64,000 nt of DNA from Microgenomates group bacterium (GCA_049303575.1 JBAQNH010000002.1:83984-147983), one strand, 5' to 3'. Shown: positions 43,821-62,226, numbered from the stretch's first letter. The notes: generated by a model from the letters alone, not told the origin. Numbers and translations are program-made.

Positions 43821-44936
43821 CTAATCTAAGTAATCCTGCAGCTTTCTTCTTCTTGAAGGATGTCGTAGCTTCCTCAGGGCTTTGCTCTCTATCTGTCTTA
43901 TACGCTCGCGAGTCACTCCAAATACCTTACCCACCTCTTCGAGAGTTAAAGGTTTACTGCCGTCAAGACCAAAGCGCATTCGCAGCACCTTACTTTCACG
44001 CTCGGTAAGGCTTCCTAGAGCCTCTTCCAGGTTCTCATGCATCAGCTGTTTACTAGTTGATTCATAGGGAGTTGCCTGTCGTTCATCGGGGATAAAGTCC
44101 CCCAGCATTGAGTCTTCATCATCCCCTATTGGTGTTTCCAAAGAAGTCGTCTTTTGGGCAATTTTCAAAATTTCACGCACTTTTTCCGGTGTCGTCTCCA
44201 ACTCTGCGGCCACCTCTTCATCTGTAGGCTCACGACCCAAATCTTGCATTAGTTTTCTCTGAGTACGAATTAGTTTGTTTATCGTCTCCACCATGTGTAC
44301 CGGAATACGAATTGTTCTGGCCTGATCGGCAATCGCCCGGGTAATCGCCTGACGGATCCACCAAGTAGCATACGTTGAGAACTTAAATCCCTTTGTCCAG
44401 TCATACTTCTCAACCGCTCGGATTAGTCCCTTATTACCCTCTTGAATCAGATCCAAAAAACTCATTCCTCTACCCATGTACTTCTTGGCAATAGAAACTA
44501 CCAAACGTAAATTACTCTTAGTTAGCATGTCTTTCGCATTTCGATCTCCTCGTTCCACTTTCTGAGCTAGAGAAATTTCCTGTTCACGTTTCAATAGCGG
44601 AATGCGTCCAATTTCTTTAAGATACATGCGCACTGGATCATTTACCTCTGTGTCTTCCAGTTTTGAAAGTGACTCTAACTCTTTTTCCAGATCACTGGTC
44701 GCCTCAATTATCTCGGCATCCTGCCCGGACAGCACACTCTCAAACACATCAATATCTTCTTTAAATAACAACTCGTAGAGATAGTCCAGATCATTTACTT
44801 CATCTTCAGCTGTAGGAAAATACACCAAGATATCATCTTGGGTTACAAAGCCTTGTTCTTGCCCAAGTTCTAGAATTGCTTTGATTTTTTGTTGAATGGA
44901 AAGAGTCCCTTTATTTTCAGCCATAATAGTCTCCAT
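43821..44936 (-). CDS. rpoD: RNA polymerase primary sigma factor (sigma-70/RpoD)
   Basis: Region 2 ([27 protein letters not shown]) and region 4 HTH ([29 protein letters not shown]). Confidence 0.9.
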
Positions 44937-44961
44937 TAGCTTACCACAAAAGAGCTTAAAA

Positions 44962-46728
44962 TCAACCCAAAAACGCTATTACCCTACTTTCTTTCTTGTT
45001 TAGCTCATTGAGCTTCGCAAATATCTCATCTTCTTTTTCTTCATTCCTTTCCCTCCTTGCCAGGTTCATCTCCTCCATTAGCTCTTTTTTTCGGTCACGA
45101 ATTATTTCTCTCAACAGTTGTACCGCTGCTTCTTCAACTTCTTTTTGGCCAGGCACCTCTTCGGAGTCTTCCGCCATGTATGCTTCTCCCGCTACTTCCC
45201 GTAGTTCTTCAGGAATATTTTTTACCAGTTCATCTACCGGCTGATTTTCTCTATTCTCCAGTAACCAGGTAATCAGTTTTCCCTCCGCTCCGGCAACGCT
45301 CACTCCCCCAAACCAGGGCGACACTATCTTTACCGCTTCCTGTTTCAAAATCAAAAGGCCAATCAATCGCCGAGCTAGTTTTACAATTCGTTTTTCCTCT
45401 ACCTTACCCCTTTCTTCACTTGTATTTTTTATCTCCTGCTTTCCGAAAATCTTTTTTTCTATCTCTCCCATCACTCCCTTTGTGGCCACCCCAATTTTGT
45501 CGGCCAATCGCTTTGCCCAAACTTCTCTTACCACATCATTTTCAATTTTTGCCAGAAATGGCACTACCTCTTCCGTAATTTTTTTAACGCCGTCTACTTT
45601 TGTCACGTCAAATTTTTTAAAAGCGCCGTCCATTATAAATTCATAAACATCGACTGATTTTTCCACCAGTTCCTTCCATTTTTCTGGAGACTTTCGGGCT
45701 ATTTCATCTGGATCTTTGCCGCCTTCTATCTGTACAACTTTTATGTTCATACCTCTCTTTTCTGCAAGCTCCACCGACCTTTTTATAGCCACGCTTCCTG
45801 CTTCATCCGCATCCATGGAAAGGTAAATTTTGTCTGCTAGTCTGGCCAGTAATTCTATCTGGTCTTCCGTCAGGGCCGTCCCCCCTACTGCCACTGTTTC
45901 TGTAATTCCAGCGGCATATGAGCTGATACAATCCATCTGTCCCTCCACCAAAACGACTCTTTTCTTTTCTCTAATTGCTTTTTTTGCTTGGAAAAAACCA
46001 TACAACATTCTGCTCTTGTGATACAGTGCCGTTTCCGGAGAGTTCATGTATTTTGGTTCATCATCTTTGGCCAATGTCGGTAAAATTCTTCCCGTAAAAC
46101 CAACCACCTTACCTCCGGCATCCTGCAAAGGAAACATTATTCTCCCTCGAAATTTATCGAAAACTCCCCCTTCTTTTGATTTTCGGCTCACCAGTCCCAC
46201 TTTTTCCAGCAACTCTTCGCTATATCCTTTTTTCTTAATCAAATAATTAACCACTCCTTCCCAACTCTGCATCGCAAATCCAAGATTAAAGGTCTCCATC
46301 AGTTTTTCGTTTATTTTCCGACTCCCAAGATACTCTCTGGCCGCCGCTCCGGCATTCCCCTCCATCAGTAGCCAGTGATAGTATCGTGCCGCCAGGTCCA
46401 TTACTTCCAACATCTTTGCTCGTTCGTCACTATCATCTCTCCTTCTGCTTACTAGCTTCACCCCGGCTTTTTCGGCTAGTCTTTCCAAAGCTTCCCGAAA
46501 CTCAATTCCCTCTATTTCCATCAGAAACTTTATTACATCCCCTCCGGCACCACACCCAAAACATTTATACAGCCCCATCTCTTCATTCACCATGAACGAT
46601 GGTGTCTTCTCTGAGTGAAACGGGCACAATCCTTTGTGGTGTCTTCCCATCTTCTTCAACACGACATAAGATCCCACCACGCCGACAATATCAGTTTTTC
46701 TCTTTATTTCCTCAACTTGATCTTCCAT
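44962..46728 (-). CDS. dnaG: DNA primase DnaG
   Basis: Zinc finger [26 protein letters not shown] ([11 protein letters not shown]). Classic dnaG-rpoD order. Confidence 0.9.
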
Positions 46729-49977: not shown

Positions 49978-50009
49978 GCGGAAGGGATGTAACAAAGTCC
50001 GAACCTTTT
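49978..50009. repeat. copy A of a roughly 30-nt imperfect direct repeat (GCGGA.G.G..AAC.AAGTCCGAACCTTT)
   Basis: Core AAGTCCGAACCTTT at 49995..50008. The partner copy is at 50956..50985. Confidence 0.6.
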
Positions 50010-50130
50010 CAATCTCTAGTTAAATTTCGCCGACGATACCCCTTCTCCTCTTTCCCTCCTTGCTTGTACAACATAATTATCAATATCTAGTTTTTTCATC
50101 TCTTCTCCGGCAAACTTAAGAAACTCCTCG

Positions 50131-50823
50131 TCAATTTATTCTCCTCCATGTTAAATGCTCGTATATGCTAGACCAAATAAAACCAAAGCTTAATGCAAAC
50201 AGAAGTTCTTCTGGCGGGATGCCAAGGATCAAAACTCCAGAAATAGCTTTTAAATTCCAAACTTTTTCCACATAACCCGGATATACAGCAATAAGTGTAA
50301 TGAAATATATAAAATATATTCCTAAAAATATTATCGCGCTTGTGATCATTTTTTTCATTAAATCGGGACGACAATACCACGAAAATAGTCCACCTCCTGT
50401 CATTGATATCACGGCAATGTAAATGGGATTAATGGAAGTTGTCATAAGAAGCAAGAAAAAAATAATCGGGGCGGAAAACAAAGCTATTAAATGATTGCGA
50501 TGTCGTCGTGAGTGTCGTTCGTGATAATTAATTTTTTCGTGTTTTGTCTTAAAAATTAGTTCATAACTTATAACCGCAATTCCACCAATGCCAAAAGAAA
50601 AAATCAGGCTTTCAATATCAAATCCAGTTCGTAAGGCTAAATTAAAAAGAGAAGGAGGACTCCAATATTCCGGGACAAATAATGGTTCGGTAAGACCAAG
50701 AATAGATGTCCACAAGCTTACAACCAGCATTTCTCGTTTTTTGTCTTTAGTATTTAGGGAAAAATAAATCACCCCCCAAACCCCTATTAACATTAAGCTC
50801 CAAATGAGCCATACATATTGCAT
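50131..50823 (-). CDS. lycopene cyclase domain-containing membrane protein (CrtYcd-like), tentative
   Basis: Two-repeat polytopic protein. Each half carries a PxE(E) motif (LTEPLFVPEYW and LGIPPEELLFALSFG) as in lycopene cyclase domain proteins. Confidence 0.4.
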   Translation of the reverse strand: MQYVWLIWSLMLIGVWGVIYFSLNTKDKKREMLVVSLWTSILGLTEPLFVPEYWSPPSLFNLALRTGFDIESLIFSFGIGGIAVISYELIFKTKHEKINYHERHSRRHRNHLIALFSAPIIFFLLLMTTSINPIYIAVISMTGGGLFSWYCRPDLMKKMITSAIIFLGIYFIYFITLIAVYPGYVEKVWNLKAISGVLILGIPPEELLFALSFGFIWSSIYEHLTWRRIN

Positions 50824-50955
50824 AAAGTTTAACTATCTGCAAGTTAGTGTATGAAATTTTTATGACTTAGTCAAACAAAATTGGGGATTTAGCATTCACA
50901 AATAGGTTAGGTTAGTCAAAGGCAACATCTTGTGATTTCACAAAAGTGAAAAATA

Positions 50956-50985
50956 GCGGAGAGTGGAACGAAGTCCGAACCTTTA
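50956..50985. repeat. copy B of the roughly 30-nt imperfect direct repeat
   Basis: Core AAGTCCGAACCTTT at 50971..50984. The two copies flank the 50131..50823 gene. Confidence 0.6.
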
Positions 50986-51017
50986 TTAAACTATGATAAT
51001 TGTAAAATAGATTTTAT

Positions 51018-51614
51018 ATGCCAAAAGTAAATTATTTAGAAAGAGTTAAAGGATTAAGTGGCGCGATAAAAGTTTTGAAGGATAGTCTTAATAAGGTAAA
51101 GGGAGGAGACTCTGATTACTATATAACATTGGCAAGTGTGCTTAGATCGTTGGTAGCTGGTGGCAACAAAAACTTTAACCCACTATTAATTGATCTGGCA
51201 AAAATAAACAATTACTCTTTAAAATGTTTTGGTAGTGGAAGTATCTCATTAATCAGAGAGATTTTAGGTAATGAAACTGCTGAAAACAACCTAGTTTCCT
51301 TACACCCACAACACTTTATTACATTACAGCAATTTAGCCCCGCACAAGACGAATATTCACTTGACGAATGGTTAGAATCAGAAACGATGGCTTTATTTGG
51401 AAAAATTTATACACCAAACTACATTCTTAGAGCTGTTGCTGACACAGAAGCTAGTCACTATGATATTGAACAACCCCAAAAATATCTTAATTTAAAAAAA
51501 ATTATTTCTGAGACAGATATTGGACAACAAAACGATGTAATAAAATTTTTAATAGAGTTAGGAGACGTCGTCGTGTATTTTGGAGAAAAGCTAATAGAAA
51601 CGATCAGTAAATAG
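51018..51614 (+). CDS. hypothetical protein convergent with the trypsin-like protease gene
   Basis: 198 aa. No signal peptide and no recognisable motif. Confidence 0.4.
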   Translation: MPKVNYLERVKGLSGAIKVLKDSLNKVKGGDSDYYITLASVLRSLVAGGNKNFNPLLIDLAKINNYSLKCFGSGSISLIREILGNETAENNLVSLHPQHFITLQQFSPAQDEYSLDEWLESETMALFGKIYTPNYILRAVADTEASHYDIEQPQKYLNLKKIISETDIGQQNDVIKFLIELGDVVVYFGEKLIETISK

Positions 51615-51684
51615 CTGATTACATTAATCGAGGTTTATATACACTTACGAAGGATCTTGAATTGAGTTATAACCATTATTTAAA

Positions 51685-52560
51685 CTAGCCAATAATGTTA
51701 TGTTTTTTAAATATTTCGAGAAATGTTGGAGTTGCAAAGCCATAAGAATATGTCGCGTTTAGTGTCTCAATATAAGCTTTTTCCTTGTATTCTTTGTAGT
51801 TTCTAATTCTTTCAGGTTCGACAACGACCTCTCTAATATTGATTGGGTGAGAGTGCCAACCTTTAACGATTGAAATAAGTCTCCCAGTCTTTGCGTCAAA
51901 AATTGGCCCACCGCTATTGCCTGGATTGAAAGCGAGTGTAAACTCATAAAAAAAGTCTTTGTCAGAAGTGTGGTATCTACAATTTACTACTCCTAAATCA
52001 GTTCTGAGTTTTATATCACCAACTTTTGGTTTGTAAACGTCCTTATTATCAAATGATAACTCACAAAGTGGATATCCTAATAAACCTACTTCCGAACCAA
52101 TAGGTAAATAATCCTTAGAAATTCTAATAAAATCGTTTTTGTCGGCATACAAAGTATCGCCAACTTGATAGAAGTTATCTTTCAAATAGATTATTGCCAA
52201 ATCTACATCAGGATATACAAATAAATCTTTATTGATTTCTAGATCCATAAAACTCCAATGAATGTTATCCTCGTCGTCATGTTTTAGGAGATAGTATTTA
52301 TCCCCATCTTTATGTTGTTGAAATTCATTATTGATGACATGAGCAGCTGTTATAAAGCGATTAGGGGCTGCGGTGAACCCAGAACCTAATGTCAACCAAT
52401 TTGTTTCCTCCTGACCATTAACCATAACTTTTCTTCCTCTCACCACAAGATATACGGATTTTTTTATCAGTTTTACGCAATCAACAAATGAGTGAAATGA
52501 CTCAGGTCGCTTGGGACGTTTTAAACCTTTATATTTTTTCTTAGGCTTCTTTGTACTCAT
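51685..52560 (-). CDS. intracellular trypsin-like (chymotrypsin-fold, S1) serine protease
   Basis: Catalytic triad contexts TAAHVI (His), DLAIIYL (Asp) and NPGNSGGPIFD (GDSGGP-type Ser). Basic N-terminus with no signal peptide. Confidence 0.65.
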   Translation of the reverse strand: MSTKKPKKKYKGLKRPKRPESFHSFVDCVKLIKKSVYLVVRGRKVMVNGQEETNWLTLGSGFTAAPNRFITAAHVINNEFQQHKDGDKYYLLKHDDEDNIHWSFMDLEINKDLFVYPDVDLAIIYLKDNFYQVGDTLYADKNDFIRISKDYLPIGSEVGLLGYPLCELSFDNKDVYKPKVGDIKLRTDLGVVNCRYHTSDKDFFYEFTLAFNPGNSGGPIFDAKTGRLISIVKGWHSHPINIREVVVEPERIRNYKEYKEKAYIETLNATYSYGFATPTFLEIFKKHNIIG

Positions 52561-52733
52561 AACTTCATTGTTTCTAAATAATGTTTATAATTTTACTCTT
52601 TTGATAAGTAATAATTAGTGAGATTTGATATACAACCAATGACTTTTGTGTTTCCATAATACTGGTTACACTCTTAAACCGAGTTCCCCATCACTGCAAA
52701 GTCGTGATAATATGCTCTGTTGAGGGTAACCAG

Positions 52734-52817
52734 CGGAGACGGTGGGATTCGAACCCACGGGACTTTTTCAAGTCATGGTTTAGCGAACCATTGTCTTAAC
52801 CACTGGACTACGTCTCC
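52734..52817 (-). tRNA. tRNA-Ser (anticodon GCT), class II with a long variable arm
   Basis: Acceptor GGAGACG/CGTCTCC, anticodon stem ATGGT/ACCAT with loop TCGCTAA, variable hairpin GACTT..AAGTC, T-arm TGGG-TTCGAAT-CCCA, discriminator G. Coordinates +/-2. Confidence 0.8.
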
Positions 52818-52833
52818 TTAACTCAAAATTATA

Positions 52834-53838
52834 TCATCGTAACTTGGAAATTAGCCTGTAGTTTGAACTCCCAACTACCTTGAAATATCGGATAATCTCA
52901 TCCTTTTTATATAGCCACACTTTATTATTGGACTGATACTTTGGAGAAAAACCTAAAGTAGTTAGTGTTTCGAAGACAAATGTTAATAACGGAGTTGATA
53001 CGTTTGTGAAGTTTATGGTTAGGTACGAGTATTGTTTTCCGTTTATTGTGTATTTATGTTCAAATAGTCCTCCGTCTGTATCAATAAGCCCTCTAAGACA
53101 CATTGTTGAATAATTGATGTCTCCTGTTATCCACTTTGGAACCGTTATTTGAATTTTTGATTTGTTTCCAAAGGAAATACCATTTTTATTCAAGAACTTA
53201 ACGAGATTAACACCGCTATACTTTAACGAAATTGCATTGGCTTTCTTGTATTTATATAGAGATGGGGAATATTTAAATAATTTTTCTGATAGATCCTTGA
53301 CATACTCCATATATTTATTGTCTAAAATTGAATTAAGGGTGATGGTCAGTTGATATTTTGTTAGTCCTCCATCACCTAAAACAATTCCAAACAACTCGGC
53401 TAATTGTTTTGATTCGTTTGGAAAATTAAAAATATTGGGTACATTGCAACCAATTGAACGATAATAATCTGGATTTTCTTTCCTGTTTTTCTGGGACATT
53501 TCTCCTCCTTTTTTTCGCCCAGATTCATTTCCAGGTGGTCCATATAGTTTATTCCTCTTTAGTGTACCAATAGGTCCATTGATTCTTCCACTCCACCATT
53601 CTTCTCTTTCTTCCAATATTGGTGGAAGGGTAATGCCAGAAATTTTGCTAATTTTTTTCATTGCGTCTCTACTTCCTAAAGTCTTTTCGCTAATCCAATA
53701 CCTGAAGCTTCTTCCTGAGATACCAACAAATTTTGATAGACCATCCGAGTTTAGAGTAAGGATAGCCATAACCTTTTTCAAGTATTTGTTTTGTTCTCCT
53801 CGTTTAAATACCAATCTTGTCATAGCTAATCCTAACAA
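52834..53838 (-). CDS. free-standing double-motif LAGLIDADG homing endonuclease with an N-terminal HTH-like region
   Basis: Two LAGLIDADG motifs, LFGIVLGDGGL and LRGLIDTDGGL. Lies 16 nt upstream of tRNA-Ser(GCT) on the same strand. Confidence 0.75.
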   Translation of the reverse strand: MLGLAMTRLVFKRGEQNKYLKKVMAILTLNSDGLSKFVGISGRSFRYWISEKTLGSRDAMKKISKISGITLPPILEEREEWWSGRINGPIGTLKRNKLYGPPGNESGRKKGGEMSQKNRKENPDYYRSIGCNVPNIFNFPNESKQLAELFGIVLGDGGLTKYQLTITLNSILDNKYMEYVKDLSEKLFKYSPSLYKYKKANAISLKYSGVNLVKFLNKNGISFGNKSKIQITVPKWITGDINYSTMCLRGLIDTDGGLFEHKYTINGKQYSYLTINFTNVSTPLLTFVFETLTTLGFSPKYQSNNKVWLYKKDEIIRYFKVVGSSNYRLISKLR

Positions 53839-53879
53839 AACCCGAAATGAATGTCAAAATACGTATATAAACACATCTG

Positions 53880-53895
53880 AATGATAAAATATACA
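53880..53895 (+). promoter_or_regulatory. putative extended -10 promoter (TGATAAAAT) for tRNA-Ser(TGA) and the following tRNA
   Basis: TGnTAAAAT is about 10 nt upstream of the mature 5' end. The same motif recurs before three other tRNA genes. Confidence 0.5.
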
Positions 53896-53900
53896 GGTTC

Positions 53901-53982
53901 GGAGAGTGGGCAGGACGGTAATGCGTTGGTCTTGAAAACCAATGAGCGCAAGCTCTAACAGGTTCGACCCCTGTACTCTCCG
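53901..53982 (+). tRNA. tRNA-Ser (anticodon TGA), class II
   Basis: Acceptor GGAGAGT/ACTCTCC, anticodon stem TTGGT/ACCAA with loop CTTGAAA, variable hairpin GAGC-GCAA-GCTC, T-arm CAGG-TTCGACC-CCTG, discriminator G. Preceded by TAAAAT. Confidence 0.8.
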
Positions 53983-53987
53983 CCTCA

Positions 53988-54072
53988 GGAGGGGTCGCAT
54001 AGTGGTCGAGTGCTCCGGTTTACTAAACCGGCGTATCGCAAGATACCGCGGGTTCGAATCCCGCCCCCTCCG
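53988..54072 (+). tRNA. class II (Ser-type) tRNA with an apparent anticodon ACT (unusual A34); possibly a tRNA-Ser variant or pseudogene
   Basis: Acceptor GGAGGGG/CCCCTCC, 3-bp D-stem GCA/TGC as in tRNA-Ser, anticodon stem CCGGT/ACCGG with loop TTACTAA, variable hairpin GTATC-GCAA-GATAC, T-arm GCGGG-TTCGAAT-CCCGC, discriminator G. Confidence 0.55.
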
Positions 54073-54094
54073 CATTTAAATAGTTACACAACTA

Positions 54095-54487
54095 TTATCT
54101 AATGTCTGGGTTTTTGCAATATTCTGTCTCAATCATTAGTGACTCATCCGTAAATCGTATCGCTATCCTTTCCTGTCTCAACTCGACAGCCAAGTTTCCA
54201 ATGAACTCTATAAATCTTTCTTTAAATCGATCTTTTTCCTCTGGAAATCTGGGGTAGACTGAGGACTCAATCAAAATAGCTGGCTCGCTATACTCATTTT
54301 TACCGGAAACCACTATCCCGCTTGGAGTCAAAGTACCAGAAAAGGTAAAATCGTTAACTTTTGAAGCTGATATTTTTATTGCTTTTTTTACTTCGTCTAA
54401 AGAGAAAGTTTTGTTTGAGTAACCCACCTTCAAACCCAAAATAACCCTTGCCTCAAAAGTCTCAATGTTTAAGCCAGTTTTATACAT
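54095..54487 (-). CDS. hypothetical protein
   Basis: ORF of 130 aa. No motif. Confidence 0.4.
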   Translation of the reverse strand: MYKTGLNIETFEARVILGLKVGYSNKTFSLDEVKKAIKISASKVNDFTFSGTLTPSGIVVSGKNEYSEPAILIESSVYPRFPEEKDRFKERFIEFIGNLAVELRQERIAIRFTDESLMIETEYCKNPDIR

Positions 54488-54561
54488 TTACTAGATTTTA
54501 CCTTAATTGTTGTCGAAACCCATTACTCCCGCAACCCTCACCTTTTTGTTACACTTATCAC

Positions 54562-55329
54562 ATGGAGGAACCTCAGCACCCAAAGACACCCACACTACCC
54601 CTCACTACCGTGGTCATCAACGAACTGGTAGATACCAAAGAAAAAGTTTCCACCCCTCCCAAAAAGGTCAGAACTCTCCCTTGGATTATTCTCGGTCTAA
54701 TAATTTCTTTAATTCTTGCTGGTATCGGCACCTTAGTCTGGAAATGGGCTCAATCTGCCAAACAACCCGATCTGGTTATCAATGCTCCTGATACTTCAAA
54801 CCCTTCAATTACTCCCCTTCCAACACCGATCGGTGAAACCACCACACTTGTTCCCCAAAGTCTTCTTTTTGAAGACAAGGCATATCGGAACGAACTCGCC
54901 AGATTTCAAATTAATGTTCCGCTCGGTTGGCAGATTGACGACTCGGGGGAGTCGGGATCGATTCTTGTCATCGTCGACCCTAAAGCTACCATCGTAAGTG
55001 GTAATGCCCTCCTCACTTTTGTGAACGTTTCCACTGGCAAAGCTTCCGGAGAAACACTTGAAAGCTATGTTAAGTCTGCCCGAGACGGTCTCATAAAAAA
55101 CTTTAATCAATATGTCATCAAAGAAGACAAAGACATGACTATTAGTGGTAATACCTACCACCTCATTGGTGGTAGCTATCAAATACAAGGTATTACGATG
55201 AAAAATCGCAATCTTCTTCTCGTTTTTAATGATCGTGGTTACGCCATCTCCGCCACGGCACCAGAATCTGTTTGGTCAAAAAAAGAACTTCTTCTCAATG
55301 CCACCATTTTTTCCTTCAAAAACTTCTAA
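54562..55329 (+). CDS. hypothetical membrane-anchored (type II) protein; start set at MEEPQHP
   Basis: TM helix LPWIILGLIISLILAGIGTLVW followed by a Pro/Thr linker and a soluble domain. The upstream part of the track ORF overlaps the minus-strand gene. Confidence 0.4.
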   Translation: MEEPQHPKTPTLPLTTVVINELVDTKEKVSTPPKKVRTLPWIILGLIISLILAGIGTLVWKWAQSAKQPDLVINAPDTSNPSITPLPTPIGETTTLVPQSLLFEDKAYRNELARFQINVPLGWQIDDSGESGSILVIVDPKATIVSGNALLTFVNVSTGKASGETLESYVKSARDGLIKNFNQYVIKEDKDMTISGNTYHLIGGSYQIQGITMKNRNLLLVFNDRGYAISATAPESVWSKKELLLNATIFSFKNF

Positions 55330-55358
55330 GGTAACAGTTCGTTGTGTTAAGATGAAAT

Positions 55359-55859
55359 GTGCCCAATATCGACCCCTTAAATTCTGAAGAAGTCATCCTT
55401 TTGGAATGGACTTCCTATGAAAGACCTCAAAAAAAATGGAGCAAAGAGTTCTACAGTTCCGTTCTCGTTATGGCTTTTCTCGCTAGCGTTATCCTTTATT
55501 TCATCGAAGGCATTATGCCCGTACTGGTAATTGGTGCGATGGTCTTTATGCTTTGGGCCATGAGTCGTACTGAACCTCGCTTAGAAAAATATGCCCTCTC
55601 CACCTGGGGACTTAAAACCAAAGAGAGAACTTATCGTTTTGAAAATATGAGTCAATTTTGGTTAGAAAATAAATGGGGAGGCAGACTTATGCGAATTAAC
55701 CTCATTGGTGCTCCCTGGCATCTCGTCATCGTCGTCAACTCGGAATCCGAAGGCAAACTGAAAAAACTCATGCTTCAATACGTCGCCTATCAAGAGCCAC
55801 CCATTACCTGGAGCGACCGTTTGGTTAAGTGGTTTGGTGACAAAGTCCCACTGGAGTAA
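55359..55859 (+). CDS. hypothetical membrane protein
   Basis: Two TM helices. No motif. Confidence 0.4.
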   Translation: MPNIDPLNSEEVILLEWTSYERPQKKWSKEFYSSVLVMAFLASVILYFIEGIMPVLVIGAMVFMLWAMSRTEPRLEKYALSTWGLKTKERTYRFENMSQFWLENKWGGRLMRINLIGAPWHLVIVVNSESEGKLKKLMLQYVAYQEPPITWSDRLVKWFGDKVPLE

Positions 55860-55974
55860 ATTTGATTTTCTTTTAAACTAAAGATAACAGTCTTGCCCTA
55901 AAAGAAGAAATCATGTATTACGCGCACAACACAGCAGACCATTTACTAAACAAAGTGAACGAAAAAGACCCGTA

Positions 55975-55990
55975 GATGGTAAAATATGCT
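55975..55990 (+). promoter_or_regulatory. putative extended -10 promoter (TGGTAAAAT) for tRNA-Arg(GCG) and tRNA-Ser(CGA)
   Basis: Conserved GGTAAAATAT box 11 nt upstream of the tRNA 5' end. Confidence 0.5.
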
Positions 55991-55996
55991 TTGTTT

Positions 55997-56070
55997 GCGC
56001 TCGTAGCTCAGTTGGATAGAGCACTAGGTTGCGGACCTAGGGGTCGCAGGTTCAAATCCTGCCGGGCGCA
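55997..56070 (+). tRNA. tRNA-Arg (anticodon GCG)
   Basis: Acceptor GCGCTCG/CGGGCGC (one T-G wobble), D-stem GCTC/GAGC, anticodon stem CTAGG/CCTAG with loop TTGCGGA, T-arm GCAGG-TTCAAAT-CCTGC, discriminator A. Preceded by TGGTAAAAT. Confidence 0.7.
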
Positions 56071-56076
56071 CTTTTG

Positions 56077-56158
56077 GGAGGGTGGGCAGGACGGTAATGC
56101 GTTGGTTTCGAAAACCAATGAGCGCAAGCTCTAACAGGTTCGACCCCTGTACCCTCCG
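56077..56158 (+). tRNA. tRNA-Ser (anticodon CGA), class II; near-duplicate of the TGA isoacceptor
   Basis: Identical to tRNA-Ser(TGA) except for the anticodon loop (TTCGAAA) and a compensated acceptor pair (GGAGGGT/ACCCTCC). Confidence 0.8.
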
Positions 56159-56188
56159 CATTTTATATATTTCTCCTTGTGCCACTAA

Positions 56189-56204
56189 AGAGATAAAATC
56201 ACCT
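56189..56204 (+). promoter_or_regulatory. putative -10 promoter (GATAAAAT) for tRNA-Arg(CCG)
   Basis: Same box at the same distance from the tRNA 5' end. Confidence 0.45.
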
Positions 56205-56207
56205 CAC

Positions 56208-56282
56208 GTACCTGTAGCTCAGTTGGATTAGAGCGTTCCCCTCCGAAGGGAAAGGTCGTGCGTTCGAATCGCACCAGGTGCA
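56208..56282 (+). tRNA. tRNA-Arg (anticodon CCG)
   Basis: Acceptor GTACCTG/CAGGTGC (T-G wobble), D-stem GCTC/GAGC, anticodon stem TTCCC/GGGAA with loop CTCCGAA, T-arm GTGCG-TTCGAAT-CGCAC, discriminator A. Preceded by GATAAAAT. Confidence 0.75.
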
Positions 56283-56306
56283 CAAATTTATCTGCTATCA
56301 TAGGCC

Positions 56307-57047
56307 ATGATTGAAAGAGATCCAATTCATAACCAAACTGCCGAAAAACTTCGTCAGCTAGACATTAAAGCCGTTCTTTTTGACTTCGACGACACTCTCA
56401 TCCACACCGGCGAACTCTTCTCTAAATACATGGAGGAATATGTCAAAGTCGTCTCCACCACACTTGGAATAGACTACTCCACTCTTCGTATCAGGCTACA
56501 AGAATTAAACGACGAAGGCTATCACAAAATGGGCGTCTCTCCACAAAGATGGAGCCTAGTTCTCGACCAGCTTTCACAGGAATTAAACAATGCCCCTGTG
56601 GTCAAAGAAAATCTCGACATTCTCATGAAAATCTACACCGACGAACCTAGAATAAAATCCGGAGCCAAAGTTATCCTCAAAGGTCTCAAGGACACGGGCT
56701 TTAAGCTTGGTCTGGTCACCCACGCCAACACTGATTGGACCATGAGGAAACTTGACCAAACTGGGCTCCTAAACTACTTCGACACTATCAAAATCGCCGA
56801 CGAAAATGGATTCAAAACTGTTGAGCACTGGAAAAGTGGTATCGAAATGCTCGGGGTCGAAAGCCAGCAATGTCTTGTTGTCGGAGATAATCTTAAAGGC
56901 GACATTATTCCTTCCGCTTCTCTGGGGGCAAAAGTCCTTTGGATGCCTAGCTCTTGGTCTGTATATCGACAAGGTGAGGTACCGGAAGGCACGATCGCAA
57001 TGGATGAACTTAGTGACTTTTGGGACTCCGTTCAAAAACTTGCGTGA
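56307..57047 (+). CDS. HAD-superfamily hydrolase
   Basis: Motif I AVLFDFDDTL (DxD). Motif II LVTHAN. Motif IV VVGDNLKGDI. Confidence 0.7.
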   Translation: MIERDPIHNQTAEKLRQLDIKAVLFDFDDTLIHTGELFSKYMEEYVKVVSTTLGIDYSTLRIRLQELNDEGYHKMGVSPQRWSLVLDQLSQELNNAPVVKENLDILMKIYTDEPRIKSGAKVILKGLKDTGFKLGLVTHANTDWTMRKLDQTGLLNYFDTIKIADENGFKTVEHWKSGIEMLGVESQQCLVVGDNLKGDIIPSASLGAKVLWMPSSWSVYRQGEVPEGTIAMDELSDFWDSVQKLA

Positions 57048-57064
57048 TGTGAATCCAAGCTCGA

Positions 57065-57080
57065 ACTGGTAAAATATACA
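57065..57080 (+). promoter_or_regulatory. putative extended -10 promoter (TGGTAAAAT) for tRNA-Ser(GGA)
   Basis: Same box at the same distance from the tRNA 5' end. Confidence 0.5.
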
Positions 57081-57087
57081 CCTGTAC

Positions 57088-57171
57088 GGAGGAGTCGGAT
57101 AGTGGTCCATTCCACATGCTTGGAAAGCATGCAGGCGCAAGCCTACGTGGGTTCGAATCCCACCTCCTCCG
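57088..57171 (+). tRNA. tRNA-Ser (anticodon GGA), class II
   Basis: Acceptor GGAGGAG/CTCCTCC, anticodon stem CATGC/GCATG with loop TTGGAAA, variable hairpin GGC-GCAA-GCC, T-arm GTGGG-TTCGAAT-CCCAC, discriminator G. Preceded by TGGTAAAAT. Confidence 0.8.
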
Positions 57172-57177
57172 CAAAAA

Positions 57178-57588
57178 CTATTTCAAGCCGTGGATATGGA
57201 AACAGTGGGTGTATTTTTTGTCCTCAAAGTTTATGTGTCCTACCCACCATTTTTGTAGGAAATCAAAAATGTCATACGACAACTCCACCCCTACCCCTTC
57301 TTTCTTTTTTGCTATGAGTTTTTTTACTTCATCTACGTATGCTTGATGAATGGTCTCATGAACCTCTTTTTCTTCATAGTTGAACTCGTCAAAATATTTT
57401 TCTTCAGTTTTAAAATGAAAGTCAGCATACTCAACCAGCTTATCTAGTATGGCGTCAATATCTTCATGAGCCTTGAAGGTTACCATTTTGTCATAAAGAT
57501 CGTTGATGATTGAAAACATCTTCTGATGTTGTAAATCAATTTCTTTAACTCCTACCGAATTCTTCTCTGTCCAGATTAGTATTGGCAT
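57178..57588 (-). CDS. hemerythrin-like metal-binding protein; start trimmed to MPILIWTEKNSVGV
   Basis: W..S.GV..ID.QH..MF.. at the N-terminus. HF..EE..F, H..H and HI..ED.K match hemerythrin His/Glu ligand spacing. Confidence 0.6.
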   Translation of the reverse strand: MPILIWTEKNSVGVKEIDLQHQKMFSIINDLYDKMVTFKAHEDIDAILDKLVEYADFHFKTEEKYFDEFNYEEKEVHETIHQAYVDEVKKLIAKKKEGVGVELSYDIFDFLQKWWVGHINFEDKKYTHCFHIHGLK

Positions 57589-57608
57589 ATTAGAGAATTC
57601 TATTACAT

Positions 57609-58277
57609 TTAGTGAGCTAAAGCTAATCCCCAAACCACCGCCGCTCCTTTTTTCTTGAGCATCTTGGTGCACTCCCTCATATCCGCTCCGCTAGTAAAAA
57701 CATCGTCCACTAGCAATATCTTTTTCCCTTTTAATTTTTTCTTGAAATTTTCTCTAACCTCAAAAACTCCTTTTACGTTTTTTTCTCTCACTTCTCTCTC
57801 CAAAATCAACGACTGTTGTTTTGTTTTTTGTTTTCTTCGCAGCACCTCTTTTACTTCAACCTTCATTTTTTTACCAATCACTCTTGCTATTTCTTCCGCC
57901 TGGTTAAAACCCCTCCAATTCTCACGGTAAAAATGCAAAGGAACGGGCACTAAATAATCAAAGCTCTCCCCAGACTCAAACTGAAAGTTTTTCAAAACAC
58001 TCTTTATTAACTCCTTATTAAAATCAAATTTAATTCCATCAATTATCGACCTCATTTTTACATCCTGATAATCATAAATCACAATTAGTCCATCCATTCC
58101 CATTTTCTTTTTACACTCCCTGTGTGTCCAACCCATCGGCGACTCTCCCCCACACTCTGAACATATTTGATCAGCTATCGAAAGTTCTCGAAAACACTTG
58201 CCACCTAAATCTTTTCCATATTTTCCACATCCATAGCATCTTTTGGGAAACAAAAAATCAAACACCATATCAAACAC
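57609..58277 (-). CDS. comFC: ComF-family protein (phosphoribosyltransferase domain with an N-terminal zinc finger)
   Basis: N-terminal CYGCG..CSECGG. C-terminal PRTase motif KKILLVDDVFTSGADM. Confidence 0.7.
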   Translation of the reverse strand: MFDMVFDFLFPKRCYGCGKYGKDLGGKCFRELSIADQICSECGGESPMGWTHRECKKKMGMDGLIVIYDYQDVKMRSIIDGIKFDFNKELIKSVLKNFQFESGESFDYLVPVPLHFYRENWRGFNQAEEIARVIGKKMKVEVKEVLRRKQKTKQQSLILEREVREKNVKGVFEVRENFKKKLKGKKILLVDDVFTSGADMRECTKMLKKKGAAVVWGLALAH

Positions 58278-58395
58278 AAAACAATTCTAACCGAGTAAAT
58301 ACAAAAAATCTCCCCGTTAGGAGAGATTTTTGTATATTGTGGAGATGGGGCGCCACTTCTTGAACCATTTCTGTTATCCCTCATTTCTTCGGTAA

Positions 58396-58716
58396 ATGAT
58401 AACTGGCACTTGGAAAATGACAACCGTTGGCTTTTGCTTCCACCCGAAAAAAGTGATGGTCTTTCTTCGTATAATAGTTATAGTGACTATAAATACTAAA
58501 CCCAAGCAATTACCCAAACCGAAAGTGGCTGTTCCTGTTCCTCAGCCACGAATTAGGATACTTGATGGCGGATATAACTCGGGCATTTCGGGCTTTGTCA
58601 GCTCCCTTCAATCAGTCAATCTCAATGCTCCCGAAGCCTCACAAAACGCCCACTCAATAAGCGACAACCGAGGTGGAAGAATAGAGCTTGGCTTGGAGAA
58701 TTACATTAAGAAGTGA
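58396..58716 (+). CDS. hypothetical protein (first gene of the putative integrated element)
   Basis: ORF only. Hydrophobic N-terminus. Confidence 0.25.
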   Translation: MITGTWKMTTVGFCFHPKKVMVFLRIIVIVTINTKPKQLPKPKVAVPVPQPRIRILDGGYNSGISGFVSSLQSVNLNAPEASQNAHSISDNRGGRIELGLENYIKK

Positions 58717-58757
58717 GACCTTGAACCTTTCAGGATGAAGGTCAAGTAAGTAATTAA

Positions 58758-59192
58758 ATGGACGAAGAAACCGACATAATTTTCCGAAAAGTGGAGCCTT
58801 TCTTGAAGTGCGGTCTGAGCCTCCACAAAGCCTGTCTACAGGCTCAAATACCCAAAAGCACGGCATATGACCTATACAAGAATAACAAGTCATTCTCGGA
58901 AAGAATAGACACCAGTAGAAATTATTACTCAGTGCTTGTAACTAGCATTGTCACGAAGGAGCTTGAGAGGATAAGCTCAAAGCAAGACCGAGGTAAGAAA
59001 TTACAACCATTGGAAGTCAGGCTCATTCAATGGATAGCCACAAACAGCCGTTCTCTCAAGGGTGAGTATGGCGACGAGCCTGAGAAATTGGATGAAGAGA
59101 TAAAGCAAGACGACACCATTACATTACTTCAAAAAATAATTAACGACTGTTCTCGGAAAGACAAGGATACACTGGAAGAGCAACCCTCTTGA
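58758..59192 (+). CDS. hypothetical protein, possible HTH (terminase-small-subunit-like) N-terminus
   Basis: GLSLHKACLQAQIPKSTAYDLY resembles a helix-turn-helix. Acidic C-terminus. Confidence 0.3.
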   Translation: MDEETDIIFRKVEPFLKCGLSLHKACLQAQIPKSTAYDLYKNNKSFSERIDTSRNYYSVLVTSIVTKELERISSKQDRGKKLQPLEVRLIQWIATNSRSLKGEYGDEPEKLDEEIKQDDTITLLQKIINDCSRKDKDTLEEQPS

Positions 59193-59311
59193 ACGGTATT
59201 TATAATCATTATAAGTTGTCCTCTTTGGGTTGAGTTTCCTTTCTGCTTCAACCATCACATTCCAACTCGGATTAGCCAACTTAATACTTAGGTAAATTAA
59301 CTCCTACAAGG

Positions 59312-59905
59312 CTAATCATTAAGGTGTTGCATAGCGTAGTCTGCTTCTGCCGCTGTAAATTTACCGCCATACTGTGAAACGAGTTGGTCACGAACAGCTG
59401 CTGGTGACAGGTTCATAGTATCTTGGTAAGTTTTTGCCTGTGAGAGAGCATTTGCATTCCAATTTGCTTTTACATTATCTATTGCATATTGTGCTGCTTT
59501 TGGCGAAAATTTCCCGCCATATTGTGAAACAAGTTGGTCATAGACACCCTGCTTAGACAAATGCATTGAGTTGGCATATGTTGTTGCTTGGGCAAGAGCA
59601 GATTTGTATTCCGCTGGCACATTTGTGCTTGGTGCTGTTGGTGCAATCGGAGTGGTTTTTGCGGAAACTGTCACACTGGGAGTTGGTTGAGTAGTATCGG
59701 TATCAGTAGTGACGGTCTCGTTACTCTCGGTTGTTTTACTTCCCTTACCTCCACTTGCAGAACCAATCATACCCAAAATAAATATAGCCAAAATAACCGT
59801 GAGTATCGGATGTCTTGCAAACCAAATCCTTTGGTCTGACTGACAATAAGGACACTTCTTGGCTTTATTATCTATCTCTTTCTGACAAGACTTACATTTT
59901 TTCAT
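59312..59905 (-). CDS. Ltp-family (PF07553-like) surface protein with an N-terminal zinc ribbon and TM anchor; putative superinfection-exclusion protein
   Basis: CKSCQ..CPYC zinc ribbon, one TM helix and a Thr-rich linker. Two tandem repeats: QATTYANSMHLSKQGVYDQLVSQYGGKFSPKAAQYAIDNV and QAKTYQDTMNLSPAAVRDQLVSQYGGKFTAAEADYAMQHL. Confidence 0.55.
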   Translation of the reverse strand: MKKCKSCQKEIDNKAKKCPYCQSDQRIWFARHPILTVILAIFILGMIGSASGGKGSKTTESNETVTTDTDTTQPTPSVTVSAKTTPIAPTAPSTNVPAEYKSALAQATTYANSMHLSKQGVYDQLVSQYGGKFSPKAAQYAIDNVKANWNANALSQAKTYQDTMNLSPAAVRDQLVSQYGGKFTAAEADYAMQHLND

Positions 59906-60019
59906 TATTCTTGTTTGTTAATAATTTTTTAATACTCCTTGTCACCTACCTACTTCAAATTGTAATCCATTCCACAGTCTAAAAACAACAATGCAGTTCG
60001 GGGATGTAAAATCAGGGCA

Positions 60020-61561
60020 ATGGAATACTACGACCTTGATGTCACAAAACTAAAGTATGTCCTCTACCTTCGCAAGTCCACCGACGACGCTCAAAGGCAA
60101 GTCAGGTCTATTGGCGACCAAGAGGCAGAATGCTTTGACCTCCAAAGACGGCTCGGACTAAATATCGTCAAAACCATAAAGGAAACAAAGTCGGCAAAGT
60201 CCCCTAACAAGCGTCCACAATTCCGAGAAATGCTTGATGGAATAAAAATGGGCAAGTATGACGCCATTCTTGCTTGGAACCCCGATAGGTTGGCAAGAAA
60301 TATGCTTGAGGGTGGAGAAATAATTTATTTGGTGGACGAAAACATTATCAAAGACCTAAAGTTCGTTACTCACCCATTCACACCCGACCCAAACGGCAAA
60401 ATGCTTCTCGGGTTGGCTTTTGTCCTCTCCAAGCAATACTCGGATGACCTCTCTCAAAAGATTTCCCGAGGAGTAAAAAGAAGCTTCAGTGAAGGCAAGA
60501 TTGGCACCTACAAACATGGTTACAAGCGTGATGATGAAGGGTTCCAAGTTCCCGACGGAAAGAAGTTTGAGCTCATTAAGGAGGCTTGGGAGCTTAGAGC
60601 CGAAGGTCGTTCCCTTGAAGAAATAGCCTCCATCATAAACGACAAGGGATATGAGAGAAAAATAAAAAGAACGGGAGTAATTATGAAGGCAGACGCCAAA
60701 CTATTGAGTAAGCTTTTCCGAGACCCATTTTATTTTGGAACTTTGATACAAGCGGGTCAAACAATAAACCTTCTCCAATTTGGCTTTATTCCTGCCACCA
60801 CAAAAGAAGTTTACGAACATATCCAGTTGCTCTCATCAAACCGACTCCGACCATTCAATGTCAGGCGAATGACATTCTTCCCTCTTAAGGCAATACTGAG
60901 GTGTTCATTTTGCGGAAAGAATATGGTGGTGGCTCCATCAACAAGCCGAGGAGGAGGAAAGCTTTTGTATTGTCGTTGCGATACCAAAGGATGTCCGAGG
61001 ATAAAGAAATCGCTCCGAATGAAGTTTGTCTTTGATTTTATCTACGACTTTTTGGATAACAATCTAAAAATCACCGAGAAGGAATACCAAAAATATCTTG
61101 ATGAAACCGACGCTCTCAATGTAGAAGCGACAAGTAATACCTACCTTCAAATCCATACTCTTGAGGGACAGGTAAAAGCTATCACCCAAGAAATCAAGGA
61201 AAGCTCACTTGGTCTCGTCAAAATAAACTCCAAATCTCCAGCCTTCAATATAGTAAACGATAGGATTTCAAGCCTAGACAATGAAAAGTCAGGCTTGGAA
61301 GAGAAACTACGAGACCTCAGGAGCACTCTAAAAAGCCCCGAGAGTCAGAGGTTGGGTATGGATGAGTTCTTGAACCTGTGTAAAAATGCGGGTGCTATCG
61401 CAAGAAGTGCCACCGAAGTTCAAAAAGATACAATTTGCCGATATGTTTTCTTGAACCTATCTGTGGATGAGGAAAAAGTAGTGGCATATCAACTAAAAGA
61501 GCCGTTCAACACATTGGTCAAACGGCTCTTTATCCAAGAAGGTGGAGACGGAGGGAATTGA
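60020..61561 (+). mobile_element. large serine recombinase (serine integrase) CDS
   Basis: Resolvase-type catalytic N-terminus (VLYLRKSTDDAQRQ, nucleophilic Ser), recombinase domain, zinc-ribbon (CSFCGKN..CRC) and coiled-coil. The 3' end overlaps the tmRNA 3' end. Confidence 0.85.
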
Positions 61562-61935: not shown

Positions 61936-61983
61936 TAAGAACCACCTATAGTATATCAAATTCTGAGGCTAAAAGCAAGACTA

Positions 61984-62226
61984 TTAGGACCTTAATGTTC
62001 TAAAATACTCAATTTTCTCAGTCAAAGTGACTCCCATCATCTGAGCACGAGACGCAGCCATTACCACACCAGCCAAAAATAAATCAAATTCGTCATCATC
62101 CATCGCGGATACTTTAGCTTTTATGCCTTCTTGCCACTTTTTCAGGCTCATTTTCGGCGTAAAATCCTTACTCCATGAATAATTAACGATGCTGGCAGGC
62201 ATTACTTTACTCCAAAATAGGTCCAT
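61984..62226 (-). CDS. small hypothetical protein between smpB and ssrA
   Basis: ORF of 80 aa. No motif. Confidence 0.3.
   Translation of the reverse strand: MDLFWSKVMPASIVNYSWSKDFTPKMSLKKWQEGIKAKVSAMDDDEFDLFLAGVVMAASRAQMMGVTLTEKIEYFRTLRS

What the first reader, a model, noticed from the sequence alone, without database searches (positions are those of the whole stretch)
51018..52560. Intracellular trypsin-like protease convergent with an uncharacterised protein in a tRNA/homing-endonuclease-flanked islet: candidate defence or abortive-infection pair
The 291-aa protease has an intact His/Asp/Ser triad (TAAHVI, DLAIIYL, GNSGGP) but no signal peptide and a basic N-terminus, so it acts in the cytoplasm. 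Its convergent partner (198 aa) matches nothing I recognise.

The pair sits between direct repeats at 50956..50985 and a tRNA-Ser/LAGLIDADG junction, the kind of context where defence islands accumulate. Cytoplasmic trypsin-like proteases are effectors or regulators in several recently described anti-phage systems.
Basis: inference. Interest (0 to 1): 0.5.

Follow-up and report, generated by a model that had tools for sequence, protein, structure and literature searches.

The report
Orphan protease gene beside unrelated stranger
Two real but functionally unlinked accessory genes lie in a small, probably imported stretch of a tiny-genome (Patescibacteria) bacterium; the protease belongs to a family that in other genomes sits next to restriction-modification genes, while its neighbour belongs to a separate family of unknown function.

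Summary
Both ORFs are real and intact. They are 51018-51614 (+), 198 aa, and 51685-52560 (-), 291 aa. The 291-aa protein is a Trypsin_2 protease with an invariant His74/Asp120/Ser216 triad and no signal peptide or membrane segment.

The "pair" is not supported. No partner homologue occurs in 35 other protease loci. No protease occurs in 19 loci that carry the partner or its family. The genes are convergent and match no PADLOC system.

The protease belongs to a tightly conserved family of about 295 aa. The family is sporadic, with about 29 loci among 185,579 species genomes, mostly Patescibacteria. In at least 18 of 32 independent loci it lies beside restriction-modification or nuclease genes. 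In nine of those the neighbour is a LexA/S24 module, usually fused to the DNA methyltransferase. These cassettes often border tRNA genes or serine recombinases. The window copy is solitary.

The partner belongs to an unannotated family of 110 representatives. Its confident model (pLDDT 89) is a helical bundle that resembles HEPN/AbiV only weakly.

Four genes at 50131-53838 have GC3 of 26-30% against 41% for the window. One of them is a LAGLIDADG endonuclease, which suggests acquired DNA.

Verdict: a modest finding, with an interesting family-level lead outside the window.

The parts
51685..52560 (-). 291-aa cytoplasmic trypsin-fold serine protease. It is a solitary copy of a conserved, roughly 295-aa family found mainly in Patescibacteria.
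   Evidence: Pfam Trypsin_2 E 7e-10, above the gathering score. His74/Asp120/Ser216 are invariant in 26 homologues. More than 215 homologues at 53-69% identity. No hydrophobic segment. GC 0.345, GC3 0.291, z about -2.1.
51018..51614 (+). 198-aa protein of an unannotated family. The model is a helical bundle with a small beta insert. It is not linked to the protease in any other locus.
52733..52817 (-). tRNA-Ser(GCU), 173 nt upstream of the protease start codon
   Evidence: ARAGORN. Rfam tRNA 56.6 bits.
52834..53838 (-). Free-standing double-motif LAGLIDADG homing-endonuclease ORF (334 aa) between two tRNA-Ser genes
   Evidence: Pfam LAGLIDADG_3 E 7e-6. PADLOC HEase 1.8e-5. PHROG endonuclease 2.8e-6. 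GC 0.337.
50131..50823 (-). 230-aa membrane protein with a lycopene-cyclase domain. It is the leftmost gene of the low-GC segment.
   Evidence: Pfam Lycopene_cyc E 4.9e-17. GC 0.349, GC3 0.299, z about -2.
50131..53838 (.). Low-GC four-gene segment, probably acquired DNA
   Evidence: All four genes have GC 0.33-0.35 and GC3 0.26-0.30. The window's gene means are 0.414 (sd 0.033) and 0.407 (sd 0.056). The 2-kb composition profile dips to 0.34-0.35 at 50-54 kb.
50971..50984 (+). One copy of the 14-nt exact direct repeat AAGTCCGAACCTTT. The mate is at 49995-50008. The two copies bracket the 230-aa gene, not the pair.
   Evidence: k-mer search and alignment. The repeat is compatible with chance.

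Best explanation
The two ORFs are independent accessory genes that happen to lie tail-to-tail in a small, low-GC, probably horizontally acquired segment (50.1-53.9 kb) next to a tRNA cluster. They are not a two-gene system.

Shown:
- The 291-aa gene encodes a soluble, catalytically intact chymotrypsin/trypsin-fold serine endopeptidase.
- It belongs to a tightly conserved, sporadically distributed family found mainly in Patescibacteria.
- The usual home of that family is the edge of restriction-modification cassettes. These cassettes are often bordered by tRNA or tmRNA genes and sometimes carry a large serine recombinase.
- In a quarter of the loci the protease gene is transcribed divergently from a DNA methyltransferase that carries an N-terminal LexA-type module. 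That module keeps the DNA-binding domain, the Ala-Gly cleavage site and the Ser/Lys dyad.

Inferred:
- In that setting the LexA part represses the shared intergenic promoter.
- The protease would then be made when the LexA-methyltransferase is cleaved or lost, for example after DNA damage, infection or loss of the cassette.
- Once made, it would cut a protein target, either to switch off restriction or to stop the cell.
- The window copy has no methyltransferase, LexA or nuclease partner. It is an orphaned but still intact copy running from its own promoter.
- The 198-aa gene is a stand-alone member of a different, unannotated family that also occurs in a prophage tail-module 'moron' position and fused to TPR repeats. 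My best guess is a small HEPN-like nucleic-acid- or ligand-binding accessory protein acting on its own.
For: - Pair not conserved: searches give 0 co-occurrences in 35 other protease loci and in 19 partner-family loci.
- Protease identity and triad.
- Sporadic distribution: about 29 true loci among 185,579 species-representative genomes. Identity stays at 54-67% across Microgenomates, Paceibacterota, Saccharibacteria, Jorgensenbacteria and MAGs labelled Gammaproteobacteria. Flanking syntenic proteins in L008 are only 37% and 53% identical, against 67% for the protease.
- Restriction-modification context: type III; HTH-ApaLI-MTase-DUF6602; TaqI nuclease plus LexA/S24-MTase fusions; GmrSD and type I M/S; HARE-HTH/PD-(D/E)XK.
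- Pfam tally over 135 neighbours: N6_N4_Mtase 9, Peptidase_S24 9, LexA_DNA_bind 8, Eco57I 5, N6_Mtase 4.
- LexA module next to the protease in 9 loci, with cleavage site and catalytic residues kept.
- An exact TTATCCACA box in the LexA-MTase/protease intergenic region of 6 loci.
- tRNA or tmRNA at cassette edges. Serine recombinase in 5 loci.
- Low GC/GC3 of the window segment.
- Partner family and fold.
Against: - No experiment or expression data exist for any member, so all function is inferred from neighbourhood.
- The window copy has none of the restriction-modification neighbours, so the family context may not apply to it.
- Five or six homologues sit between housekeeping genes: glmS/guaA, gyrA, groEL, dnaN. 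This fits a house-cleaning protease as well as an orphaned mobile gene.
- A functional link between the two window genes that is specific to this lineage cannot be formally excluded. Only three genomes carry close partner homologues.
- The LexA-repression and protease-target steps are speculation.
- The boundaries of the low-GC segment were not confirmed by comparison with an 'empty site' genome.
Confidence: 0.62

Rival explanations
1. One reading: protease and partner together form a two-gene defence, abortive-infection or toxin-antitoxin-like module. One would be the sensor or inhibitor and the other the effector.
For: The genes are adjacent with a 70-nt gap in a low-GC, mobile-looking segment. 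The protease domain resembles protease effector domains in PADLOC models. The partner fold weakly recalls HEPN/AbiV toxins.
Against: There are no co-occurrences outside this window. The genes are convergent, so they do not form an operon. The partner matches no defence model. The PADLOC hits on the protease are generic protease-domain matches at the same level as Pfam Trypsin_2.
Confidence: 0.06
2. The protease is an ordinary housekeeping or quality-control protease of Patescibacteria, comparable to a PDZ-less HtrA. Its restriction-modification neighbours are coincidental.
For: The sequence is very strongly conserved. Housekeeping genes flank it in L006/L007 (glmS, guaA), L026 (gyrA), L027 (groEL) and L028 (dnaN). 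The closest relative, L008, shares synteny with window genes 43821-46728.
Against: It occurs in only about 29 of 185,579 species genomes. The window copy has atypical GC. Restriction-modification or nuclease neighbours occur in at least 18 of 32 loci and serine recombinases in 5. It has no PDZ domain and no signal peptide. NCBIfam HtrA/DegP scores are 16-18 bits against cut-offs above 400.
Confidence: 0.15
3. The segment is a decayed prophage or phage-derived element. The protease would be a phage (prohead or accessory) protease and the partner a phage moron.
For: A partner-family member sits at the end of a siphovirus tail module. The BFVD fold match is to a Gordonia phage protein. There is a weak PHROG 'protease' hit, 1.2e-5. 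A serine recombinase abuts the tmRNA gene 7.5 kb away.
Against: The protease has no match in IMG/VR contigs, INPHARED phage genomes or PLSDB plasmids. The partner has none in IMG/VR or INPHARED. No structural or replication phage genes lie beside the pair. Ordinary-looking genes (a HAD-like hydrolase, a ComF-like protein, by inspection of the translations) and seven tRNA genes lie between the pair and the recombinase.
Confidence: 0.07
4. The 198-aa protein is a stand-alone HEPN-type RNase toxin or AbiV-like single-gene abortive-infection protein, independent of the protease.
Confidence: 0.15

Closest known systems
PDZ-less members of Pfam Trypsin_2 (PF13365) / MEROPS clan PA family S1 bacterial serine endopeptidases (HtrA/DegP-like catalytic domain)
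   Same: The domain scores above the gathering threshold. The His-Asp-Ser order is kept, with the TAAHV and GNSGGP motifs. The best PDB sequence matches are DegP/MucD and Deg2/Deg9.
   Different: It has no PDZ domain and no signal peptide or membrane anchor. It has a conserved Lys/Arg-rich N-terminal tail and a conserved extension of about 55 aa at the C-terminus. PDB matches are marginal, E 1e-4 over 30-50 residues. NCBIfam HtrA models score far below their cut-offs.
Protease effector domains of defence systems in PADLOC: retron type XI RT-protease, PDC-M35A, Lamassu LmuA-protease
   Same: These are the best PADLOC hits, at E 2.7e-10, 2.7e-9 and 2.5e-7. All are cytoplasmic trypsin-like domains encoded in defence loci.
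   Different: Only the protease portion of the models aligns, for example positions 331-489 of 510 in RT-Protease_XI. The gene has no reverse transcriptase, no SMC-like LmuB and no PDC-M35B-like neighbour. The E-values are no better than for generic Trypsin_2.
Accessory genes of restriction-modification cassettes, and N-terminal HTH-bearing self-regulating methyltransferases (from general knowledge of C-protein and SsoII/EcoRII-type control; review PMC3874152 appeared but was not read)
   Same: In related loci the protease sits at the edge of C-protein / nuclease / methyltransferase cassettes. The methyltransferase carries an N-terminal DNA-binding module that faces a divergent promoter.
   Different: The DNA-binding module here is a complete LexA (wHTH plus self-cleaving S24) rather than a simple HTH. 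A dedicated trypsin-like protease gene is attached. I found no description of either feature in the literature library. None of this is present in the window itself.
HEPN-superfamily toxins / AbiV (for the 198-aa protein)
   Same: It is a helical bundle of similar size. HEPN toxins, Csm6 HEPN and AbiV recur among weak structural hits. It is a stand-alone gene, sometimes in prophage.
   Different: No significant score was obtained. There is no Rx4-6H motif and no Pfam HEPN hit. The model has an extra beta insert.

Membership tests
Trypsin_2 / clan PA (S1) serine peptidase (protease ORF) | Profile match above the curated threshold | tested here: met
   PF13365 scores 40.2 bits against 27.6. PF00089 scores 25.7 against 20.6.
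Trypsin_2 / clan PA (S1) serine peptidase (protease ORF) | Catalytic triad His, Asp, Ser in that order, in conserved motifs | tested here: met
   His74 (TAAHV), Asp120 (DLAI) and Ser216 (GNSGGP) are invariant in 26 sequences.
Trypsin_2 / clan PA (S1) serine peptidase (protease ORF) | Double beta-barrel chymotrypsin fold | not tested
HtrA/DegP/DegQ family | One or two C-terminal PDZ domains, and export (signal peptide or membrane anchor) | tested here: not met
   No PDZ hit in Pfam. NCBIfam degP_htrA_DO scores 18.2 bits against a cut-off of 416. No hydrophobic N-terminus.
Retron type XI (RT-protease) | Reverse-transcriptase domain fused to the protease | tested here: not met
   The PADLOC hit covers only model positions 331-489 of 510. 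Pfam finds no RT domain in the ORF. The ncRNA was not searched for.
Lamassu (LmuA-protease variant) | LmuB SMC-like ATPase gene adjacent to LmuA | tested here: not met
   The neighbours are the 198-aa ORF, a tRNA and a LAGLIDADG ORF. None is SMC-like.
PDC-M35 candidate system | A second gene (PDC-M35B) next to the PDC-M35A protease | tested here: not met
   The partner and the other neighbours give no PADLOC PDC-M35 hit.
Two-gene operonic toxin-antitoxin or defence pair | Co-orientation or co-transcription, and recurrent co-occurrence of the two families | tested here: not met
   The orientation is convergent. Co-occurrence is 0 of 35 and 0 of 19.
Restriction-modification-linked protease cassette seen in related loci | DNA methyltransferase, LexA module or restriction nuclease within 3 genes of the protease | tested here: not met
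   tblastn of all such neighbours against the 64-kb window finds only the serine recombinase at 60020-61561.
HEPN superfamily / AbiV (198-aa ORF) | Rx4-6H catalytic motif | tested here: not met
   The nearest candidates, Arg/Lys138 and His147, are separated by 8 residues, and residue 138 varies (R, K or Q).
HEPN superfamily / AbiV (198-aa ORF) | Significant sequence-profile or structural similarity to HEPN domains | tested here: inconclusive
LAGLIDADG homing endonuclease (neighbour 52834-53838) | LAGLIDADG motif(s) and a profile match | tested here: met
   PF14528 scores 26.7 bits against 22.5. Two motifs (…VLGDGGL…, …LIDTDGGL…) are visible in the translation.

The most novel reading that the evidence does not exclude
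The roughly 295-aa protease family may be an undescribed accessory component of restriction-modification cassettes in Patescibacteria. It would be genetically wired to methyltransferases that carry a complete self-cleaving LexA module. DNA damage, infection or loss of the cassette would remove the LexA-methyltransferase repressor and switch on the protease. The protease would then either destroy the restriction nuclease (a built-in 'restriction alleviation' device in organisms with minimal proteolytic machinery) or kill the cell (abortive infection or post-segregational killing). The window copy would be a stranded relic of such a cassette. The 198-aa gene would be a separate, new HEPN-like accessory family shared with phages.
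Probability: 0.2. Interest if true: 0.65.

Novelty: new member of a known kind. Interest (0 to 1): 0.33.

Why it matters
For this window the result is mostly a correction. The proposed defence 'pair' is two unrelated accessory genes, so it should not be counted as a new two-gene system.

The by-product matters more. A sharply conserved cytoplasmic protease family travels with restriction-modification cassettes in candidate-phyla-radiation bacteria. In about a quarter of the loci its neighbour carries an intact LexA self-cleavage module, usually fused to the methyltransferase. If that link is functional, restriction-modification activity would be tied to a DNA-damage-type switch and a dedicated protease. 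I could not find this arrangement described. It is testable in vitro even though these organisms are mostly uncultured.

The 198-aa protein defines a family absent from Pfam. A confident structural model for it now exists.

Tried and rejected
- Pairing hypothesis. I searched for the partner in all protease loci and for the protease in all partner-family loci. I also compared the protease's neighbours in other loci with the partner by alignment. No relation was found, so the hypothesis is rejected.
- tRNA-fragment / att-site idea for 50956-50985. The best local alignment to any tRNA gene of the window is about 9 matched bases. Rejected.
- Direct repeat as an islet boundary. The 14-nt repeat brackets only the adjacent gene and is compatible with chance.
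- att duplication of the tmRNA 3' end. No repeat of 12 nt or more was found nearer than 2.4 kb coordinates. This is uninformative, because serine recombinases need no long repeat.
- First structure model of the partner, from 3 sequences. It was unusable, with pLDDT 43. It was redone with 25 sequences.
- Single-sequence locus scans of the genome and viral collections found nothing. Alignment-based scans were needed.
- The afdb50 fold library was unavailable.
- Phage and plasmid collections gave no match.
- PDB sequence search of the partner profile gave one insignificant hit, E 0.014.
- Five of 25 partner-family members give weak hits to one PADLOC 'Cas1' model, best E 8.8e-5. I regard this as unexplained and did not use it.
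- Literature searches for LexA-methyltransferase fusions or for this protease family returned nothing relevant.
- The TTATCCACA box seen in LexA-MTase/protease intergenic regions has no exact copy anywhere in the 64-kb window. By inspection of the upstream sequence, only a two-mismatch look-alike, TTATCAAAA, lies upstream of the protease.

Full report
**1. What is there**

The window comes from a 704-kb contig of a 'Microgenomates group' (Patescibacteria/CPR) metagenome-assembled genome.

- ORF 51018..51614 (+, 198 aa) and ORF 51685..52560 (-, 291 aa) are convergent and 70 nt apart.
- Upstream of the protease lie tRNA-Ser(GCU) at 52733..52817 (-) and a 334-aa double-motif LAGLIDADG ORF at 52834..53838 (-). 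Six more tRNA genes (Ser x4, Arg x2) follow up to 57172.
- On the other side is a 230-aa lycopene-cyclase-domain membrane protein at 50131..50823.
- The four genes 50131-53838 have GC 0.33-0.35 and GC3 0.26-0.30. The 61 genes of the window average 0.414 (sd 0.033) and 0.407 (sd 0.056), so these four lie 2.0-2.6 sd low (the dip is also visible).

**2. The protease**

- It passes Pfam Trypsin_2 and Trypsin.
- His74, Asp120 and Ser216 are invariant in a 26-member alignment. That alignment also shows a conserved Lys/Arg-rich N-terminal tail (consensus KKYxGPKxPKRPExFHSF) and a conserved C-terminal extension.
- It has no hydrophobic segment, so a cytoplasmic location is reasonable.
- NCBIfam HtrA/DegP/MarP models score about 16-22 bits against cut-offs of 250-450, and no PDZ domain is found.
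- PDB sequence matches are marginal.
- PADLOC hits (RT-Protease_XI 2.7e-10, PDC-M35A 2.7e-9, LmuA 2.5e-7) cover only the protease part of those models. They are no stronger than generic Trypsin_2.

**3. Distribution of the protease family**

- More than 215 cluster representatives share 53-69% identity and a length of about 295 aa.
- Only about 29 true loci were found among 185,579 species-representative genomes. The scan requires two family-invariant peptide patterns.
- None was found in IMG/VR, INPHARED or PLSDB.
- Hosts carry many labels: Paceibacterota, Saccharibacteria, Jorgensen-, Kaiser-, Kerfeld- and Peribacteria. A few MAGs are labelled Gammaproteobacteria, Flavobacteriales or Chlamydiae.
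- In L008, the best-matching full-length locus and the only one sharing flanking genes with the window, the protease is 67% identical. The two syntenic flanking proteins are only 37% and 53% identical, and the genes in between differ.
- This pattern fits a mobile gene under strong constraint. It does not fit a core gene.

**4. Neighbourhood of the protease family**

I called ORFs in 36 loci, clustered the neighbours and annotated them. Of 32 non-redundant loci other than the window, at least 18 have restriction-modification or nuclease genes beside the protease:

- L002: type III Mod, NYN, Res.
- L003 and L011: HTH, ApaLI (in L003), MTase, DUF6602.
- L009: GmrSD.
- L010 and L016: type I M/S.
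- L009, L010, L012 and L023: a HARE-HTH/PD-(D/E)XK protein directly after the protease.
- Nine loci with a LexA/S24 module next to the protease.
  - In seven the module is fused to the N-terminus of a methyltransferase. The methyltransferase belongs to either of two unrelated families, PF01555 or PF02384/PF07669: L013, L014, L015, L017, L022, L025, L032.
  - In L021 the module is a separate gene beside the methyltransferase.
  - In L020 it stands alone.

The typical order is C-protein HTH, then nuclease (for example TaqI-type in L014), then LexA-MTase on the opposite strand, then the protease divergent from the MTase.

The LexA modules keep the Ala-Gly cleavage site and the Ser/Lys dyad when aligned with E. 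coli LexA.

Six of these intergenic regions contain an exact TTATCCACA box. Eleven boxes occur in the whole 455-kb locus set (window included) against about 3.5 expected.

A tRNA or tmRNA gene lies within about 1 kb of the cassette or protease in at least 9 loci. A large serine recombinase occurs in 5 loci, and in four of them it abuts a tRNA gene.

Five or six loci have purely housekeeping flanks: glmS/guaA, gyrA, groEL, dnaN.

The window has no methyltransferase, LexA or nuclease homologue. Its copy is therefore solitary.

**5. The 198-aa partner**

- It has no Pfam, NCBIfam, PADLOC or PHROG match.
- Only two close homologues exist, at 80% and 72% identity. Neither is next to a protease.
- A profile search of 1.84 billion representatives found 110 relatives at E below 1e-3. 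They are stand-alone proteins of 190-250 aa, N-terminal domains of proteins of about 400 aa (some with TPR repeats), or C-terminal domains of proteins of about 340 aa.
- The most conserved positions are Arg43, Pro55-Leu-Leu, Trp118 and His147. The consensus also shows YTPNEIIR and KEGGxHYD stretches.
- With 25 sequences AlphaFold gave pLDDT 89 and pTM 0.88: a helical bundle with a small beta insert.
- Foldseek against the PDB was not significant.
- BFVD gave a Gordonia phage protein at E 4e-4, TM 0.54.
- One relative sits at the end of a siphovirus tail module.
- Nineteen loci with family members contain no trypsin-like protease and share no conserved neighbour.

**6. Interpretation**

- The 'direct repeat' is a single 14-nt match that brackets the neighbouring gene. 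It is not informative.
- The 'pair' interpretation fails the co-occurrence test in both directions.
- The 'defence-related' flavour survives only for the protease family, by association, and not for this particular locus.
- My preferred reading (confidence about 0.6) has three parts.
  - The genes are two independent accessory genes in a small acquired segment.
  - The protease is an orphaned but intact copy of a family linked to restriction-modification cassettes.
  - The partner is a stand-alone member of an unannotated family, at best HEPN-like.
- The regulatory and mechanistic model is inference only. It proposes that the LexA part of the methyltransferase represses the divergent protease gene, and that the protease acts on the nuclease or on cell proteins after derepression.

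**7. Novelty and score**

For the window this is a new member of known kinds: a Trypsin_2 protease and a hypothetical protein. Interest is modest, at 0.33.

The family-level association of a LexA module (usually fused to the methyltransferase) with a dedicated protease in CPR restriction-modification cassettes did not turn up in the literature library. It is the most novel reading. I give it about 0.2 probability of being a functional unit of the kind proposed, with interest of about 0.65 if true.

Noticed in passing
L014:6346-7866(-), L017:5218-7881(-), L025:6052-7881(-); also L013, L015, L022, L032 (fused), L021 (split), L020 (stand-alone): These DNA methyltransferases belong to two unrelated families (PF01555, or PF02384/PF07669). 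Each carries a complete N-terminal LexA module: a LexA DNA-binding domain plus Peptidase_S24, with the Ala-Gly site and Ser/Lys retained. They sit in C-protein/nuclease cassettes, divergent from the protease gene. I found no description of this in the literature library.
   Followed up: partly
Intergenic regions upstream of the protease in L013 (1237), L014 (7931), L015 (2564), L017 (7884), L025 (7884 and 7973), L032 (7516): An exact TTATCCACA sequence, identical to the classical DnaA-box consensus, recurs between the LexA-methyltransferase and protease genes. In L025 it appears as an inverted pair, one copy at each gene start. It could be the operator of the LexA module or a DnaA site. The window has no exact copy.
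   Followed up: partly
window 60020-61561 (+) and 61541-61934 (-): A 513-aa large serine recombinase ends inside the 3' end of the tmRNA gene (21-nt overlap), with smpB just beyond at 62237-62677. Homologous recombinases abut tRNA genes in the same way in protease loci L019, L020, L029 and L032. This suggests an integrative element at ssrA. Its left boundary was not found.
   Followed up: partly
window 53988-54073 (+): ARAGORN calls this tRNA-Ser with anticodon ACU. The anticodon loop reads TTACTAA, so A is at position 34. That is unusual for bacteria, and a tRNA-Ser(GCU) is also present at 52733-52817. Five tRNA-Ser genes (GCU, UGA, ACU, CGA, GGA) lie within 4.5 kb.
   Followed up: no
window 52834-53838 (-): A free-standing double-motif LAGLIDADG endonuclease ORF lies between two tRNA-Ser genes rather than inside an intron or intein. 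It has an N-terminal extension of about 130 aa, a TTG start and low GC (0.337).
   Followed up: no
window 1-50000 versus 50000-62000: GC skew is strongly negative (-0.2 to -0.4) over the first 50 kb. It is near zero from 50 to 62 kb and returns to -0.39 at 62-64 kb. The change probably reflects gene orientation: mostly minus-strand genes before 50 kb and mixed orientation after. The break coincides with the start of the low-GC segment.
   Followed up: no
Partner-family proteins P0125-P0164 (alignment A4): Five of 25 members give weak hits (best E 8.8e-5) to one PADLOC 'Cas1' model, although they match nothing in Pfam. This is unexplained. The model may contain an extra helical domain.
   Followed up: no
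L003:3101-3658, L011:2319-3035: A DUF6602 protein is inserted between the methyltransferase and the protease in ApaLI-type cassettes. PADLOC hits for it are PD_DExK 1.6e-9 and a weak NucC-like hit. It may be a second nuclease of these cassettes.
   Followed up: no
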